From IMG/VR virus record IMGVR_UViG_3300042887_005898: a DNA stretch of 64,000 nucleotides; one strand, written 5' to 3'. Below are positions 9,821-61,610 of this stretch, in pieces. This DNA comes from an uncultured virus (IMG/VR IMGVR_UViG_3300042887_005898). Lineage: Duplodnaviria > Heunggongvirae > Uroviricota > Caudoviricetes. Position numbers and translations under genes: made by a program. How positions within the stretch are numbered: the first letter of the stretch is position 1; the number at the start of each line of letters is the position of its first letter. Under the pieces are notes generated by a model. It saw only the letters and a list, made by a program, of their open reading frames with translations. It was not told where the DNA came from and made no database searches.

Positions 9821-9928
9821 ACGTTATATATAATTTTTTTCAATAAAAATTTGACAAGTTTAAAACTTTATTATATATTTGTATAAAATAAAAAAAAAAG
9901 AGAAAAAAACTTTTTAATATATAAAGAA

Positions 9929-10027
9929 ATGAGAGCAATTCGTAAACATAGTCATTTTAGTAAATCGTTTTCTTGGTTTAATCACCAAGGTTCGGTACTA
10001 AGAGAGTATTGCTCAAATTTGATGTAA
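9929..10027 (+). CDS. Leader peptide of tRNA array 1 (MRAIRKHSHFSKSFSWFNHQGSVLREYCSNLM)
   Basis: 32-aa ORF between promoter motifs and terminator; codons 5-17 all R/K/H/S/F/W. Confidence 0.8.
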   Translation: MRAIRKHSHFSKSFSWFNHQGSVLREYCSNLM

Positions 10028-10093
10028 CATAGAAATACATATAAAGAAATACTACAAGTCCGAACCGAGAAATCAGTTCGGACTTTTTGTTTT
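9989..10093 (+). promoter_or_regulatory. Attenuator 1: antiterminator/terminator switch
   Basis: Terminator AAGTCCGAAC(10056-65)/GTTCGGACTT(10076-85) plus U tract; GGTTCGGtACT(9989-99) can pair with AGTCCGAACC(10057-66). Confidence 0.85.
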
Positions 10094-10097
10094 ATAT

Positions 10098-10515: not shown

Positions 10516-10527
10516 CAAAGAAAAAAT

Positions 10528-10659
10528 GGGGATGTAGCTCAGCGGTAGAGATTAATCTCTCTTTTAAAATTTTACCTCTATAAAAAGAGTGTTGATTAAA
10601 AGAGTTACTTCGTATATTTTGAACATATAAGGTCGTGGGTTCGAATCCCACCATCCCCA
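10528..10659 (+). ncRNA. tRNA-like RNA with ~55-nt structured insertion in the D region (anticodon possibly UGA)
   Basis: Perfect acceptor GGGGATG/CATCCCC, T arm GTGGG-TTCGAAT-CCCAC, arm TATAT-TT-TGA-AC-ATATA. Confidence 0.7.
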
Positions 10660-10666
10660 CTAATTT

Positions 10667-10749
10667 TCCTCTCATATCGGCCGTGTCTTCGAAACATGAG
10701 TACCGTAACGGATAATGAAAAATGGGGGTTCGAATCCCTCTGAGAGGAC
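10667..10749 (+). ncRNA. Atypical tRNA-Arg(UCG)-like RNA, D-arm reduced, long variable region
   Basis: Acceptor TCCTCTCA/TGAGAGGA; CGTGT-CT-TCG-AA-ACATG; T arm GGGGG-TTCGAAT-CCCTC. Confidence 0.65.
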
Positions 10750-10758
10750 TAAATATTT

Positions 10759-13641: not shown

Positions 13642-14565
<924 letters not shown>

Positions 14566-14572
14566 CTAATTT

Positions 14573-14680
14573 GGCCCGGTCGTCTAGCGGTGTTTGTTTG
14601 AAAAAACAGATGTTGGATTTTCCATCAGGACTATCGACTTTTAAGTCTGATAAACAGAGGTTCGAATCCTCTCCGGGCTA
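14573..14680 (+). ncRNA. tRNA-like RNA (Glu-type body) with D-loop insertion and distorted anticodon arm
   Basis: GGCCCGG/CCGGGCT acceptor; TCGTCTAGCGG-[insert]-AGGAC; T arm AGAGG-TTCGAAT-CCTCT. Confidence 0.7.
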
Positions 14681-14691
14681 CAAAAAAAAAT

Positions 14692-14805
14692 GGCGTGTTC
14701 GTCTAGCGGACAATCTCTTTAAGAGAGAACTCGAAACCGAAAGGTCGAAGGTTTAGGACCACCACTTCACTGTTGGTGACATTGGTTCGAATCCAATACA
14801 CGCTA
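14692..14805 (+). ncRNA. tRNA-like RNA (Glu-type body) with D-loop insertion and 9-nt anticodon loop
   Basis: GGCGTGT/ACACGCT acceptor; TCGTCTAGCGG-[two hairpins]-AGGAC; CACCA-CTTCACTGT-TGGTG. Confidence 0.7.
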
Positions 14806-14811
14806 CAACAT

Positions 14812-14883
14812 TGCGGGATAGAGCAGAGGTAGCTCGCAAGGCTCATAACCTTGAGGTCACAGGTTCGAATCCTGTTCCCGCTA
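14812..14883 (+). tRNA. tRNA-Met(CAU), initiator-like
   Basis: CAAGG-CT-CAT-AA-CCTTG; 1:72 mismatch and A11:U24. Confidence 0.9.
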
Positions 14884-14899
14884 CTAAATCTAAAATTTA

Positions 14900-58604: not shown

Positions 58605-60266
58605 ATGCTTAAAAATATAATTGAAAAATATATAAATTCGGATAGTCGAAAGAAAATTTCTTACTTAGAAAAAGAAATTACTAATCACTCTATACTATAT
58701 AGTGAGTTCAAAAGAATCTCAAATCCCAATCTAAGCATTAGAAATAACATTTATAACATTTATTATGATATAGATTCTATTATCTGTCCTGTTTGTCAGA
58801 ATCAAAAAGTTGCTTGGAATGAAAAGGATTTTTGTTATAGAAAAACTTGTAGTTATAAGTGTTCGGGTAAACTATTGAAAACTGGTAAAAAAGAATATAA
58901 GTTTCCAGAAATTGAATCAAAAGAACAATTTATTTCATTAGTTAGGCAAAACAAAGTTAAACTCACTTCGATTACTAAAACTTCTTACTATGAAGAAGTC
59001 AAAAACTATAGAGGTGAAACATTACAAGAGAAAACATTTAGATGGATTAATGAACTAAATGATCAAATTTTATGTGACAAAAAAGATTGTCAAAATGAAG
59101 TAAGTTTTGTTAATTTCAGTAAAGGTTTTAGACAATTCTGCTCAGTTAAGTGTTCGTCATCATCTGATATAAAGATTTCAAAAGTTAAAGAAACTTGTCT
59201 AGAAAAATACAAAGTAGACAATGTTTCTAAAAGACAGCTACACATTGAAAGATATAAAAGTATTCTGAGTAACTTTGATATCATTTCATATGATAGCTCA
59301 TCTTTTGTTTTGTTTCATCATGATTGTAAAAATCAAATAGAGATAACAAGAAGAATGATCTACGATAGAAACAACATGAATACTGAAATTTGTACACACT
59401 GTAATAAAATACAGAGTATGCAGTCAGGTTATGAGCTACAACTTAAACAGTGGTTGATTAACTTAGGTATTAACATCGATGAAAATAATAGGAAAATAAT
59501 TTATCCAAAGGAGTTAGATTTGTTTCTACCCGACCACAATTTAGCGATTGAATTCAATGGATTATTCTGGCACTCAGAGAATTATGTTGGTAAGAATTAC
59601 CATATAGACAAAACAAAACTTTGTGAAGAAAAGAATATCAAACTTATTCATATTTGGGAAGACGATTGGATTTACAAAAATGATATAGTAAAGTCAATTA
59701 TAAGTAATAAATTAAAAATTAATCAGAGTAGAGTTTATGCTAGAAATTGTGAAGTAAGAGAAGTGACTGATGTAAAACTAGTAAAAGACTTTTTAAACAA
59801 AAATCATATACAAGGATATTGTAAATCACAGCACAAAATTGGATTATTTTATAACAACGAACTTATTTCTTTGATGACTTTTGGGTTCAGAAAAACCAAT
59901 TCTAAAAAAGAGTTTGAACTAATAAGGTTTTCAAACAAGAAATACTACACAGTTATTGGCTCTGCGTCAAAACTATTTAGTTTCTTTGTTAATAAGTATC
60001 AACCAGAATTTATTTTATCCTATGCTGACATAAGTTTATTTGATGGGTCCTTATATAATAGTCTTGGTTTCAAATTTATTCATAGAACAGAACCAAATTA
60101 TTATTGGGTTGTTGATGGAATAAGGTATCACAGATGGGTGTTTAATAAAAAGAAATTATTAGAGTCTGGTGGTAGTTCTAAGAAAACAGAAAAAGAAATT
60201 ATGACAGATCGAGGTCATTTTAGAGTTTTTTCTTGTGGTCAAGATAGGTATGAGTTTACAAAATAA
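58605..60266 (+). CDS. Free-standing homing endonuclease-like protein (Zn-finger repeats plus Vsr/Hef-type nuclease domain)
   Basis: CPVC/CSYKC repeats; ELDLFLPDHNLAIEFNGLFWH; LIHIWEDDW; next to nrdB. Confidence 0.75.
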   Translation: MLKNIIEKYINSDSRKKISYLEKEITNHSILYSEFKRISNPNLSIRNNIYNIYYDIDSIICPVCQNQKVAWNEKDFCYRKTCSYKCSGKLLKTGKKEYKFPEIESKEQFISLVRQNKVKLTSITKTSYYEEVKNYRGETLQEKTFRWINELNDQILCDKKDCQNEVSFVNFSKGFRQFCSVKCSSSSDIKISKVKETCLEKYKVDNVSKRQLHIERYKSILSNFDIISYDSSSFVLFHHDCKNQIEITRRMIYDRNNMNTEICTHCNKIQSMQSGYELQLKQWLINLGINIDENNRKIIYPKELDLFLPDHNLAIEFNGLFWHSENYVGKNYHIDKTKLCEEKNIKLIHIWEDDWIYKNDIVKSIISNKLKINQSRVYARNCEVREVTDVKLVKDFLNKNHIQGYCKSQHKIGLFYNNELISLMTFGFRKTNSKKEFELIRFSNKKYYTVIGSASKLFSFFVNKYQPEFILSYADISLFDGSLYNSLGFKFIHRTEPNYYWVVDGIRYHRWVFNKKKLLESGGSSKKTEKEIMTDRGHFRVFSCGQDRYEFTK

Positions 60267-60328
60267 AAAAATCATTAGGAAAGGAAACTTTTATAATATA
60301 TATTTGTATAACTTAAAATAGAAAAAAA

Positions 60329-60403
60329 ATGAAAGTTGTTAATAACATATCAATCATAGGGAACGGCACTATAGCGGGTGGCCTTCTTTTGCTGATTGGT
60401 TAA
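60329..60403 (+). CDS. Leader peptide of tRNA array 2 (MKVVNNISIIGNGTIAGGLLLLIG)
   Basis: 24-aa ORF; ATA x3, GGG, GGC x2, GGT, GCG before the antiterminator strand. Confidence 0.8.
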   Translation: MKVVNNISIIGNGTIAGGLLLLIG

Positions 60404-60462
60404 GTATTGACTCTTTCATTCAAGATACTTTAAACCCAATCAGTGATGATTGGGTTTTTTTT
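60391..60462 (+). promoter_or_regulatory. Attenuator 2: antiterminator/terminator switch
   Basis: Terminator AAACCCAATCA(60432-42)-GTGA-TGATTGGGTTT plus U tract; CTGATTGG(60392-99) pairs with CCAATCAG(60436-43). Confidence 0.85.
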
Positions 60463-60471
60463 ATTTTATAT

Positions 60472-60545
60472 TGGTGAGTAGCTTAAACGGTAGAAGCACC
60501 TGTCTTATACACAGGAGAAAGTGGGATCGTTACCCACCTCACCAA
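60472..60545 (+). tRNA. tRNA-Ile(UAU)
   Basis: CCTGT-CT-TAT-AC-ACAGG; acceptor TGGTGAG/CTCACCA. Confidence 0.9.
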
Positions 60546-60552
60546 CTAAACT

Positions 60553-60625
60553 GCAGAAGTGGTGTTAATGGTTAGCATGTGAGACTTCCACTCTCAAGGT
60601 GCCAGTTCGAATCTGGTCTTCTGCT
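60553..60625 (+). tRNA. tRNA-Gly(UCC)
   Basis: TGAGA-CT-TCC-AC-TCTCA; U73. Confidence 0.93.
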
Positions 60626-60629
60626 CAAT

Positions 60630-60702
60630 GCGAGAGTAGCTCAATAGGTAGAGTACCACCTTGCCAAGGTGGATGTTGCCGGATCGTACCCGGTCTCTCG
60701 CT
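60630..60702 (+). tRNA. tRNA-Gly(GCC)
   Basis: CCACC-TT-GCC-AA-GGTGG; U73. Confidence 0.93.
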
Positions 60703-60715
60703 CTTTATAAATAAT

Positions 60716-60789
60716 GGGTCATTGGTGAAGCTGGCTATCACACAAGATTTGCAATCTTGAGTCACGAGTTCGAAGCTCGTATGTATCCA
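60716..60789 (+). tRNA. tRNA-Ala(UGC)
   Basis: CAAGA-TT-TGC-AA-TCTTG; G3:U70; one-base bulge in acceptor stem. Confidence 0.85.
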
Positions 60790-60794
60790 CAGAT

Positions 60795-61610
60795 TTAGAA
60801 ATCAGATTTGAAGTATCTAAGCTCACTTTGAGCAAGTTGAGTATCACCTCCAGAGTATTCTACTAGTGAATTAAACCAAGATGTTCTTATGTCATTTCCT
60901 CTTTTTCGATGTCTATCATAAGCGTCTCTTAGAAGAAAAGCACCTGCTTTAATATTTGTGATTTGATTATGTTCTTTGAACCCTAGCTTTTTAGCAACAA
61001 GATTAAAAGTTGCTGGCATTACTTGACAATAACCAAAAGCACCTGATCCAGCAGAGTTAGCGATAAATTGAAATCCTGATTCGTGGTCAACAACTCTAAA
61101 GAATATTGTATATGGGATTTTATACTTTTCGATTTCGTCAATCATTGTAAAGAAGATATCATCAGGTAGTTTAACTAAATTTTGATAATGTGTCAAATTA
61201 CAATCTCTTTTAATAATAAATTGAAGATACTCACGAGAACCCATAGTTTCTCTTAGCTGAGTTATAGTAGAATCTTTTCTGTCTAATAGAACATTCGAAT
61301 TGTAAAGAATATTATTGATCTCTTCTAATTTAGATTCTAATGAGTAGATTTTTTCTGCTTTATCAGTGAATGATAACCATCTTCCAATTGAAAATAAACC
61401 AGTTGTCCAGAAAATAAAGGAGATAACTACAATAACGATTATTTTGTTATTTTTTAACAGTTGTCTCCAATTTATTTTTCTAAATTCTGGATAGATAAAC
61501 CATTCTAATATATCGATTAATTGGTATCTAACATACTTTTCAAAAAGTTGATTATTGACATGATTCATCAATAACCAACTGTGTAGTTTAATTAAATTTT
61601 TCTTAATCAT
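60795..61610 (-). CDS. Membrane-anchored lytic transglycosylase (SLT)
   Basis: TM, coiled coil, VVDHESGF...S.SGAFGYCQVMPAT, NIKAGA. Confidence 0.88.
   Translation of the reverse strand: MIKKNLIKLHSWLLMNHVNNQLFEKYVRYQLIDILEWFIYPEFRKINWRQLLKNNKIIVIVVISFIFWTTGLFSIGRWLSFTDKAEKIYSLESKLEEINNILYNSNVLLDRKDSTITQLRETMGSREYLQFIIKRDCNLTHYQNLVKLPDDIFFTMIDEIEKYKIPYTIFFRVVDHESGFQFIANSAGSGAFGYCQVMPATFNLVAKKLGFKEHNQITNIKAGAFLLRDAYDRHRKRGNDIRTSWFNSLVEYSGGDTQLAQSELRYFKSDF

What the first reader, a model, noticed from the sequence alone, without database searches (positions are those of the whole stretch)
60293..60789. Second, sequence-unrelated attenuator with reciprocal specificity (Ile-AUA/Gly/Ala)
Seen in sequence: leader 60329-60403 codons 7-18 are ATA TCA ATC ATA GGG AAC GGC ACT ATA GCG GGT GGC, so 9 of 12 are Ile/Gly/Ala. 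The tRNAs downstream are Ile(UAU), Gly(UCC), Gly(GCC) and Ala(UGC). The match reaches isoacceptor level: ATA x3 for UAU, GGG for UCC, GGC/GGT for GCC, GCG for UGC, and these GC-rich codons look uncommon in this AT-rich genome. CTGATTGG (60392-99) pairs with the terminator 5' arm and AAGTAT/ATACTT extends the helix. This leader has no His/Phe/Trp codons, and the leader-1 sensor stretch has no Gly/Ala/Ile. It is an independent replicate of the architecture, which argues against coincidence.
Basis: partly seen in the sequence, partly recalled or inferred. Interest (0 to 1): 0.93.

Follow-up and report, generated by a model that had tools for sequence, protein, structure and literature searches.

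The report
Codon-matched leader attenuator gating phage tRNAs
A tiny 24-codon gene written largely in the codons read by the four tRNA genes just downstream sits inside a switchable transcription stop signal, so this large phage probably makes those tRNAs only when ribosomes read their codons slowly.

Summary
The layout is: promoter-like element (60285-60311), 24-codon ORF (60329-60403), intrinsic terminator (60432-60467), then tRNA Ile(UAU), Gly(UCC), Gly(GCC) and Ala(UGC) from 60472.

- **Codon match:** 9 of 23 leader codons are read by those four tRNAs (gene background 0.096, P=1.7e-4). Of 220 short ORFs in the window, only the leader itself reaches that fraction.
- **RNA switch:** segments 1:2, 2:3 and 3:4 can pair alternately. 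In a ribosome-masking model the antiterminator forms only when a ribosome sits at codons 1-18.
- **Relatives:** a tRNA-only search found 37 metagenome loci, and 33 carry a leader ORF plus terminator ahead of the array.
- **Leader tracks array:** neighbouring Glu/Tyr arrays have Glu/Tyr leaders, fused arrays have fused leaders, and a lone tRNA-Ile has a leader without the Gly/Ala block.
- **Pairing support:** the antiterminator is paired in 85.7% of cells, and two of its pairs show compensatory changes.

Limits:
- There is no experiment.
- Isoacceptor-level matching fails for Ala in some relatives.
- The 1:2 hairpin is not conserved.

This scan has noted the same kind of element on other DNA (AI notes). 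Seven literature searches found no description of it for tRNA genes. I rate it a new variant of leader-peptide attenuation.

The parts
60285..60311 (+). Promoter-like element. It includes an exact 15-mer (60297-60311) that is also found before leader 1 at 9872-9886.
   Evidence: the exact 15-mer occurs only at these two places in the window. A related A/T-rich motif precedes the leaders of relatives. Promoter function is inferred.
60329..60403 (+). Leader ORF, 24 codons plus TAA. The 20 nt upstream are 70% A, with no Shine-Dalgarno-like core.
   Evidence: The frame is open in 18 of 18 distinct family leaders, while the other two frames carry 56 and 27 stops. Only 1 of 50 long ORFs in the window has an SD-like core, so its absence here is normal.
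60347..60382 (+). Sensor block, codons 7-18: ATA x3, ATC, GGG, GGC x2, GGT and GCG, plus TCA, AAC and ACT.
   Evidence: 8 of 12 codons are read by the four downstream tRNAs; codon 18 is the last A-site position at which the antiterminator still forms (P=0.79 with a +12 nt ribosome edge).
60349..60356 (+). Segment 1, which pairs with segment 2 as an anti-antiterminator. It lies within the codon run ATA TCA ATC ATA.
   Evidence: The minimum-free-energy folds show the 1:2 hairpin (60345-60403) at -17.1 kcal/mol. With no ribosome, P(2:3)=0.01.
60392..60408 (+). Segment 2, the 5' strand of the antiterminator. The octamer 60392-60399 and 60402-60408 overlap the last three sense codons and the stop codon.
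   Evidence: it pairs with 60436-60443 and 60424-60430, and the 2:3 hairpin folds at -16.1 kcal/mol.
60432..60467 (+). Intrinsic terminator: segment 3 (5' arm, 60432/33-60442), loop 60443-60446, segment 4 (60447-60456/57), then a T-tract from 60455.
   Evidence: One search finds an 11-bp stem followed by a T-run. One search gives -13.5 kcal/mol. In relatives the stem is paired in 92.1% of 127 cells.
60472..60546 (+). tRNA-Ile(UAU), which reads ATA.
   Evidence: ARAGORN; Rfam tRNA, 58.2 bits.
60553..60626 (+). tRNA-Gly(UCC)
60630..60703 (+). tRNA-Gly(GCC)
60716..60788 (+). tRNA-Ala(UGC). It is the last gene of the unit; the next gene (60795-61610) lies on the other strand.

Best explanation
This is a ribosome-mediated (leader-peptide) transcription attenuator whose regulated genes are tRNA genes.

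**Proposed mechanism**
1. Transcription starts at the promoter-like element near 60300.
2. A ribosome translates the 24-codon leader.
3. If it reads the ATA, GGN and GCG codons quickly, it reaches the end of the ORF. There it covers segment 2 (60392-60408), so the terminator hairpin (60432-60457) forms and transcription stops 5-10 nt before tRNA-Ile.
4. If decoding of those codons is slow, the ribosome lingers within codons 1-18. That happens when the tRNAs reading them are scarce, uncharged or damaged. Segment 1 is then covered and segment 2 is free.
5. Segment 2 pairs with the terminator's 5' arm, and RNA polymerase runs on into the Ile(UAU)-Gly(UCC)-Gly(GCC)-Ala(UGC) array.
6. The products relieve the stall, which gives negative feedback on tRNA supply.
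7. With no translation at all, the 1:2 hairpin holds segment 2 and termination follows. This step applies to this window's clade.

**Shown here**
- The parts exist and their pairings are possible.
- The parts are conserved.
- Leader content covaries with array content.

**Inferred**
- The leader is translated.
- Transcription and translation are kinetically coupled.
- Stalling causes read-through.
For: **Anatomy.** Promoter-like motif, ORF, terminator and tRNA array follow one another, and no sigma-70-type promoter is found after the terminator.

**Energetics.**
- 1:2 hairpin: -17.1 kcal/mol
- 2:3 hairpin: -16.1 kcal/mol
- 3:4 terminator: -13.5 kcal/mol
- The whole leader folds with z=-6.4 against 200 shuffles.

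**Ribosome masking** on the nascent RNA ending at 60446.
- No ribosome: P(2:3)=0.01.
- A site at codons 1-17: about 0.93.
- Codon 18: 0.79. Codon 19: 0.16.
- Codon 20 to the stop codon: 0.
- In 20 of 20 aligned family leaders this boundary falls at codons 13-19, at the end of the Ile/Gly/Ala block.

**Codon statistics.**
- 9 of 23 leader codons fall in the strict set, P=1.7e-4, and 1 of 220 short ORFs reaches that fraction.
- The reciprocal sets score 2 of 23 and 2 of 31.
- The match is frame-specific: 155 of 451 codons in frame, against 62 and 37 of 451 in the other frames.

**Codon choice across 18 distinct leaders.**

| Codon | Share within leaders | Share within window genes |
|---|---|---|
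| ATA | 46 of 71 Ile codons | 0.32 |
| GGC | 30 of 65 Gly codons | 0.06 |
| GCG | 31 of 45 Ala codons | 0.04 |

**Unbiased relatives.** 37 loci were retrieved with a tRNA-Ile pattern only. 33 have a leader plus terminator ahead of the array: 23 directly upstream, 4 with an aaRS-like ORF between, and 6 fused arrays.

**Leader tracks array, codons 2-18.**
- 20 leaders of Ile-headed arrays: Glu+Tyr count is 0 in 17 and 1 in 3.
- 10 leaders of Glu/Tyr arrays: Glu+Tyr count is 5-7.
- 3 leaders of fused arrays carry both blocks.
- The leader before a lone tRNA-Ile lacks the Gly/Ala block.

**Antiterminator covariation.**
- 85.7% of 154 cells are paired, against 21-39% when the partner is slid.
- Two pairs show double changes, in 7 cells; 0 of 500 shuffles reach that.
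Against: - There are no transcript, ribosome or reporter data, and the host is unknown.
- At equilibrium the full-length RNA favours the terminator at most ribosome positions. The model therefore needs kinetic, co-transcriptional competition.
- The transcript 5' end (assumed at 60318) and the ribosome footprint (+10 to +14 nt) are assumptions.
- The 1:2 hairpin is not conserved. With no ribosome, the 5' arm is already paired upstream with P between 0.09 and 0.90 across relatives.
- Isoacceptor tuning is imperfect. L005, L010 and L034 hold tRNA-Ala(GGC) in the DNA seen, but their leaders use GCG/GCA. L005 uses GGC with no Gly(GCC) within 1200 nt.
- One relative (L028) keeps the terminator but has no ATG ORF.
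- The family members are related, so per-sequence counts are not independent events. The covariation rests on two pairs.
- The conserved G+C-rich core of the block could also serve an RNA-level role.
Confidence: 0.75

Rival explanations
1. The element is a real translation-coupled terminator switch, but it reports general translation activity rather than the supply of particular tRNAs. Any slowing or loss of translation would give read-through. On this view the codon block is a secondary feature, for example slow rare codons of any kind.
For: In many relatives the antiterminator already forms with no ribosome (P up to 0.90). A stall at any of codons 1-18 gives the same modelled outcome. The Ala codons do not match tRNA-Ala(GGC) in some arrays.
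Against: A general sensor would not need its block rewritten whenever array content changes. Yet Glu/Tyr arrays, fused arrays and the lone tRNA-Ile each have a matching leader. Leader 1 of this window uses Lys, His, Phe, Trp and Ser codons, which match its own array.
Confidence: 0.12
2. The ORF encodes a small hydrophobic peptide with its own function, and the hairpin is simply its leaky terminator. The tRNAs are made by constitutive read-through, and the codon match is incidental.
For: The peptide is hydrophobic and its N-terminal third is conserved. Intrinsic terminators are often leaky (general knowledge).
Against: - The C-terminal half is not conserved as protein. It does follow the sequence of the terminator arm.
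- Length varies from 22 to 28 codons.
- Composition follows the tRNA set.
- The element travels with the array, not with upstream genes.
Confidence: 0.06
3. The element is an untranslated RNA, for example a tRNA-binding riboswitch of the T-box kind, or a processing or stability hairpin for the tRNA precursor.
For: It lies in a 5' leader and has alternative hairpins.
Against: - No T-box family or any other Rfam family reaches its threshold. The best match is 26.7 bits against a cut-off of 55, driven by the terminator hairpin.
- The frame is open in 18 of 18 distinct leaders, while the other two frames are closed.
- The codon match is frame-specific.
Confidence: 0.04

Closest known systems
Leader-peptide transcription attenuators of enterobacterial amino-acid operons (trp, his, leu, pheA)
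   Same: It has a short ORF with regulatory codons and overlapping 1:2, 2:3 and 3:4 pairings that end in an intrinsic terminator. A ribosome at the stop codon masks segment 2. Codon choice in the leader is strongly biased; such bias is described for classical leaders in PMC1183508 (passages read).
   Different: - The regulated genes are tRNA genes, not biosynthetic enzymes, so the product acts directly on the sensed step.
- It is in a phage.
- There is no Shine-Dalgarno sequence.
- No match to the Rfam leader families.
Multivalent leaders (thr and ilvGMEDA/ilvBN operons; recalled, not read here)
   Same: Several amino acids are interleaved in one sensor block.
   Different: Here the mix corresponds to the tRNA genes in the array. 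It is rewritten when arrays fuse or shrink.
T-box riboswitches
   Same: They sense tRNA status and act through a terminator/antiterminator choice on genes of the translation apparatus.
   Different: A T-box binds tRNA directly and is not translated. No T-box signature is found here, and a conserved ORF is present instead.
pheST (pheM leader) attenuation of an aminoacyl-tRNA synthetase operon in E. coli (recalled, not read here)
   Same: A leader peptide gates a gene of the decoding apparatus. In four relatives (L002, L015, L016, L038) the same leader gates a class II aaRS-core ORF and then the tRNAs.
   Different: In the window only tRNA genes are gated.
The same kind of element noted by this scan on other DNA (AI notes e1-2978539, e1-5886956, e1-5926040, e1-5943215, e1-5355203)
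   Same: The layout is the same: promoter, codon-matched short ORF and terminator directly before phage tRNA arrays.
   Different: - These are other genomes, and no look-alike sequence is indexed.
- The notes are unchecked and are not independent evidence.

Membership tests
Leader-peptide (ribosome-mediated) transcription attenuator | Short translatable ORF in the 5' leader, with its frame conserved | tested here: met
   there are 0 in-frame stops in 18 distinct leaders, against 56 and 27 stops in the other frames. Translation itself has not been shown.
Leader-peptide (ribosome-mediated) transcription attenuator | Regulatory codons enriched and cognate to what the operon supplies | tested here: met
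   9 of 23 codons, P=1.7e-4; the leader block follows array identity in 33 informative leaders. Caveat: the Ala isoacceptor does not match in some relatives.
Leader-peptide (ribosome-mediated) transcription attenuator | Intrinsic terminator directly before the regulated genes | tested here: met
   an 11-bp stem and T-tract end 5-10 nt before the tRNA. The stem is 92.1% paired in relatives.
Leader-peptide (ribosome-mediated) transcription attenuator | Antiterminator that is mutually exclusive with the terminator, with its 5' strand covered by a ribosome at the end of the ORF | tested here: met
   -16.1 kcal/mol, 85.7% paired, and two covarying pairs. Segment 2 overlaps the last codons and the stop codon.
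Leader-peptide (ribosome-mediated) transcription attenuator | Anti-antiterminator (1:2) hairpin that enforces termination without translation | tested here: inconclusive
   It is present in the window and its clade (no-ribosome P about 0.09). It is weak or absent in many relatives (P up to 0.90).
Leader-peptide (ribosome-mediated) transcription attenuator | Regulated genes are amino-acid biosynthesis or transport genes | tested here: not met
   only four tRNA genes follow. This is the point of difference.
Leader-peptide (ribosome-mediated) transcription attenuator | Read-through increases when the regulatory codons are read slowly | not testable with these tools
   This needs reporter, in vitro or transcriptome experiments.
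T-box riboswitch | Stem I with specifier loop, and the conserved T-box antiterminator sequence (Rfam model) | tested here: not met
   no T-box match, even at E-values up to 10, in 60250-60480.
Rfam amino-acid operon leader families | Match to a curated leader covariance model | tested here: not met
   none is listed. The best hits are unrelated small RNAs, far below their cut-offs.

The most novel reading that the evidence does not exclude
Large freshwater phages may carry a modular, evolvable family of 'tRNA-stats'. Each block of phage tRNA genes, and in some relatives a synthetase-like gene, would sit behind a test ORF whose codon block is rewritten to mirror the block's tRNAs. The phage would then sense, codon by codon, when the host's decoding capacity fails, and switch on exactly the matching tRNAs. 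Such failure could come from codon-usage mismatch, from host shut-off, or from anticodon-nuclease defence.
Probability: 0.35. Interest if true: 0.92.

Novelty: new variant of a known kind. Interest (0 to 1): 0.85.

Why it matters
How phages control their tRNA genes is largely unknown, and this would be a concrete mechanism. It would extend the classical attenuation logic to a case where the regulated product is the sensed molecule itself, forming a direct feedback loop on decoding capacity.

It would give a readable signature (the leader's codons) of which codons a phage expects to be limiting in its host. It also offers a testable link between phage tRNA arrays and host tRNA depletion or cleavage.

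The family found here is a natural series for experiments, because it contains separate, fused and single-tRNA versions.

Tried and rejected
- **Whole genome:** none is held for this window.
- **Close relatives in the viral contig collection:** none found. This covers the neighbouring SLT-domain protein (37 pattern hits, 0 confirmed) and two tRNA-Ile patterns (0 matches each).
- **GenBank phages:** only one record, LR745206.1, shares the leader. The other hits were tRNA-Gly or homing-endonuclease similarities.
- **Equilibrium folding of the full leader with a masked ribosome:** this did not give a clean switch, so I used the nascent-transcript model instead. My first version of that model used pair coordinates off by one and gave zeros. 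It was corrected.
- **Leader 1 statistics:** first run in the wrong frame, then corrected.
- **Covariation on one alignment of all 20 leaders:** not possible for 2:3, because the window's clade pairs in a register 3 nt away from the other clade. I therefore counted pairs on the 14 distinct sequences of the other clade. Within the window's clade (5 sequences), the 2:3 helix is conserved with one U-A to U-G change and no double change.
- **Rfam at gathering and at permissive thresholds:** no known family.
- **Promoter between terminator and tRNA:** none of sigma-70 type. Other promoter types are not covered by that scan.
- **Earlier notes of this scan:** none found by place or by sequence.

Full report
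**What is there**

The window is AT-rich DNA (29% G+C) of a large phage type.
- It carries thymidylate synthase, the ribonucleotide reductase small chain, a chaperonin, DnaJ, adenylosuccinate synthetase and other auxiliary genes.
- It also carries a GOLLD RNA.
- Its only GenBank look-alikes over this region are uncultured phages of about 635 kb.

At the finding's coordinates the layout, in order, is as follows.
- A promoter-like A/T element lies at 60285-60311.
- A 24-codon ORF lies at 60329-60403.
- An intrinsic terminator follows: 11-bp stem at 60432-60457, with a T-tract to 60467.
- tRNA-Ile(UAU) starts at 60472, followed by Gly(UCC), Gly(GCC) and Ala(UGC).
- The next gene is on the other strand, so the four tRNAs are all that the element could gate.

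No sigma-70-type promoter lies between the terminator and the tRNA. That scan does not cover other promoter types.

**Observation check**

Nine of the 23 codons after ATG are read by the four downstream anticodons under strict wobble rules: ATA x3, GGG, GGC x2, GGT x2 and GCG.
- The frequency of that codon set in the window's long ORFs is 0.096, which gives a binomial P of 1.7e-4. Of 220 ATG-ORFs of 18-35 codons in the six frames of the window, only the leader itself reaches that fraction.
- GGG, GGC, GCG and CTG each occur at under 4 per 1000 codons in the window's genes. Five such codons in 23 has P=1.9e-3.
- The reciprocal claim holds. Leader 2 has 2 of 23 codons in the set of array 1. Leader 1 (9929-10027) has 14 of 31 codons in its own set (P=4e-3) and 2 of 31 in the set of array 2.
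- The two leaders are unrelated in their ORFs and hairpins. They do share an exact 15-nt promoter-like element that occurs nowhere else in the window.

**RNA structure**

- The leader folds far better than shuffles (z=-6.4).
- Three overlapping hairpins are possible:
  - segment 1 (60349-60356) with segment 2 (60393-60400), at -17.1 kcal/mol;
  - segment 2 (60392-60408) with the terminator 5' arm and the spacer (60424-60443), at -16.1 kcal/mol;
  - the terminator itself, at -13.5 kcal/mol.
- An 8-nt or longer perfect complement of the arm in the upstream 103 nt is seen in 237 of 20000 shuffles.
- At equilibrium the full-length RNA mostly keeps the terminator, so any switch must be kinetic.

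I modelled the nascent RNA up to the terminator loop, with a ribosome covering everything up to 10-14 nt past the first base of the A-site codon.

| Ribosome A site | P(antiterminator) |
|---|---|
| no ribosome | 0.01 |
| codons 1-17 | about 0.93 |
| codon 18 | 0.79 |
| codon 19 | 0.16 |
| codon 20 to stop | 0 |

The last Gly codon of the block is codon 18, so the block fills the zone in which a stalled ribosome would give read-through.

**Relatives**

- Searches of the viral contig collection found nothing.
- A pattern taken only from tRNA-Ile(UAU), and so blind to the leader, retrieved 37 metagenome loci.
- A leader ORF plus terminator lies ahead of the array holding this tRNA in 33 of the 37:
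  - 23 have it directly upstream;
  - 4 have a 246-residue class II synthetase-core ORF between the terminator and the tRNA;
  - 6 are arrays fused to the neighbouring Glu/Tyr array.
- The other four are L007 (a different context), L028 (terminator but no ATG ORF), and L020 and L037 (the contig ends there).
- Together with the window and LR745206.1, this gives 20 sequences in alignment A1, 18 of them with distinct ORFs.
- The frame is open in all 18, while the other two frames hold 56 and 27 stops. The matched codon set makes up 155 of 451 codons in frame, against 62 and 37 of 451 out of frame.
- Codon choice is far from that of the window's genes.

| Codon | Share within leaders | Share within window genes |
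|---|---|---|
| ATA | 46 of 71 Ile codons | 0.32 |
| GGC | 30 of 65 Gly codons | 0.06 |
| GGG | 14 of 65 Gly codons | 0.03 |
| GCG | 31 of 45 Ala codons | 0.04 |
| GCT | 1 of 45 Ala codons | 0.51 |

Strong codon bias is a known trait of attenuator leaders (PMC1183508, passages read).

**Pairing in relatives**

- The window's clade and the other clade use different registers for 2:3, so I counted pairs on the 14 distinct sequences of the other clade.
- The antiterminator is paired in 85.7% of 154 cells, against 21-39% when the partner is slid by 1-3 columns. Two pairs change on both sides (G-C/C-G and U-A/A-U, 7 cells). No shuffle out of 500 reaches that cell count or the covariation score.
- One of the changed arm positions is also compensated in the terminator's 3' arm. 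That is what alternate pairing predicts.
- The terminator stem is paired in 92.1% of 127 cells.
- In all 20 aligned leaders, the modelled read-through zone ends at codons 13-19, at the end of the block.

**The leader follows the array**

This is the strongest evidence. An automatic scan for short ORFs followed by a terminator and tRNAs gave 36 distinct candidates. Two of them are overlapping other-frame artefacts. Counts below are for codons 2-18.

| Array gated | Leaders | Glu+Tyr | Ile+Gly+Ala |
|---|---|---|---|
| Ile-headed, no Glu/Tyr tRNAs | 20 | 0 in 17, 1 in 3 | 5-12 |
| Glu/Tyr only | 10 | 5-7 | 4-5 |
| Fused | 3 | 3-4 | 8-9 |

- The three distinct fused-array leaders stand for six loci.
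- In L018/L025 the array is a lone tRNA-Ile(UAU). Rfam and ARAGORN find no other tRNA downstream. Its leader keeps its Ile codons but has lost the Gly/Ala block.
- Leader 1 of the window has 12 of 17 codons for Lys, His, Phe, Trp and Ser, which are the amino acids of its own array.
- The Glu/Tyr and Ile/Gly/Ala leaders share their first codons and their terminator type. They therefore look like paralogues whose sensor block was rewritten.

**Mechanism proposed**

Fast decoding carries the ribosome onto segment 2. The terminator then forms and the tRNAs are not made. Slow decoding of ATA, GGN or GCG holds the ribosome in codons 1-18, segment 2 pairs with the terminator arm, and the array is transcribed. 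The new tRNAs then speed decoding, which closes the loop.

Translation without a Shine-Dalgarno sequence is normal here. Only 1 of 50 long ORFs has such a core. The 20 nt upstream of starts are A-rich: 0.49 on average, 0.70 for this leader, against a window background of 0.36.

**Against, and limits**

- Nothing has been measured, and the host is unknown.
- The 5' end of the transcript and the ribosome footprint are assumed.
- The 1:2 hairpin is clade-specific. The no-ribosome value ranges from 0.09 to 0.90, so in many relatives the default without translation would be read-through.
- Isoacceptor-level matching holds in the window but not everywhere. L005, L010 and L034 show a genuine tRNA-Ala(GGC) and no Ala(UGC) in the DNA held, yet their leaders use GCG/GCA. 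Only 1200 nt downstream was fetched, so further tRNAs may have been missed.
- The sequences are related, so the counts overstate the number of independent events. I count about five independent configurations: Ile/Gly/Ala, Glu/Tyr, three fused variants, Ile alone, and leader 1.

**Comparison and novelty**

- The element meets the structural features of leader-peptide attenuators. It differs in what it controls.
- It matches no Rfam family, including T-box and the amino-acid leaders.
- Seven full-text searches found no description of leader-peptide attenuation of tRNA genes. I saw listings and abstract starts only, apart from the passages of PMC1183508. Subscription journals are largely outside that library.
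- This scan's own earlier AI notes describe the same kind of element on other genomes. None of them involves look-alike sequence. They are leads, not evidence.
- I class it as a new variant of a known kind.

Noticed in passing
window 9864-10097: Leader 1 is a 32-codon ORF (9929-10027) rich in Lys, His, Phe, Trp and Ser codons. It is followed by a terminator (about 10057-10090) that abuts the Lys-His-Lys-Phe-Trp...Ser-Ser array. It sits behind the same exact 15-nt promoter-like element (9872-9886). 14 of its 31 codons fall in its own set (P=4e-3).
   Followed up: partly
window 14157-14562: A GOLLD RNA (Rfam RF02032, 277 bits) is followed by two long tRNA-like genes and by tRNA-Met at 14812-14884.
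   Followed up: no
window 10520-10750 and 14572-14806: These are tRNA-like genes with long internal insertions; acceptor and T-arm-like ends are visible. ARAGORN does not call them, and Rfam gives only one weak tRNA hit (10588-10659, 30.1 bits). They may be intron-bearing or otherwise unusual tRNAs.
   Followed up: no
L015 1272-2012 (-), L002, L016, L038: In four relatives a 246-residue class II aminoacyl-tRNA-synthetase core ORF sits between the Ile/Gly/Ala leader-terminator and tRNA-Ile. It matches Pfam PF00587 (E about 1e-12), and its nearest solved chains are glycine-tRNA ligases (E 7e-7). The same leader would therefore gate a synthetase-like gene as well.
   Followed up: partly
L025 660-960; L001 820-933: tRNA-Met genes, and one tRNA-Glu, sit directly behind the promoter-like motif with no leader ORF and no terminator in between. 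Not every tRNA gene of these phages is gated.
   Followed up: no
L026 573-810: A Glu/Tyr leader and terminator are followed by a second promoter-like motif and a small hairpin with a T-run before tRNA-Glu. This array may have an additional, leader-independent start.
   Followed up: no
window 58605-60266: A 553-residue ORF lies upstream of the leader. It has no Pfam match, but its DNA resembles Hef-like homing endonuclease genes of Campylobacter phages (64-69% identity over about 350 nt).
   Followed up: no
L028 1-310: This relative keeps the terminator before Ile-Gly-Ala but has no ATG-initiated leader ORF. It may be a decayed or differently started version.
   Followed up: partly
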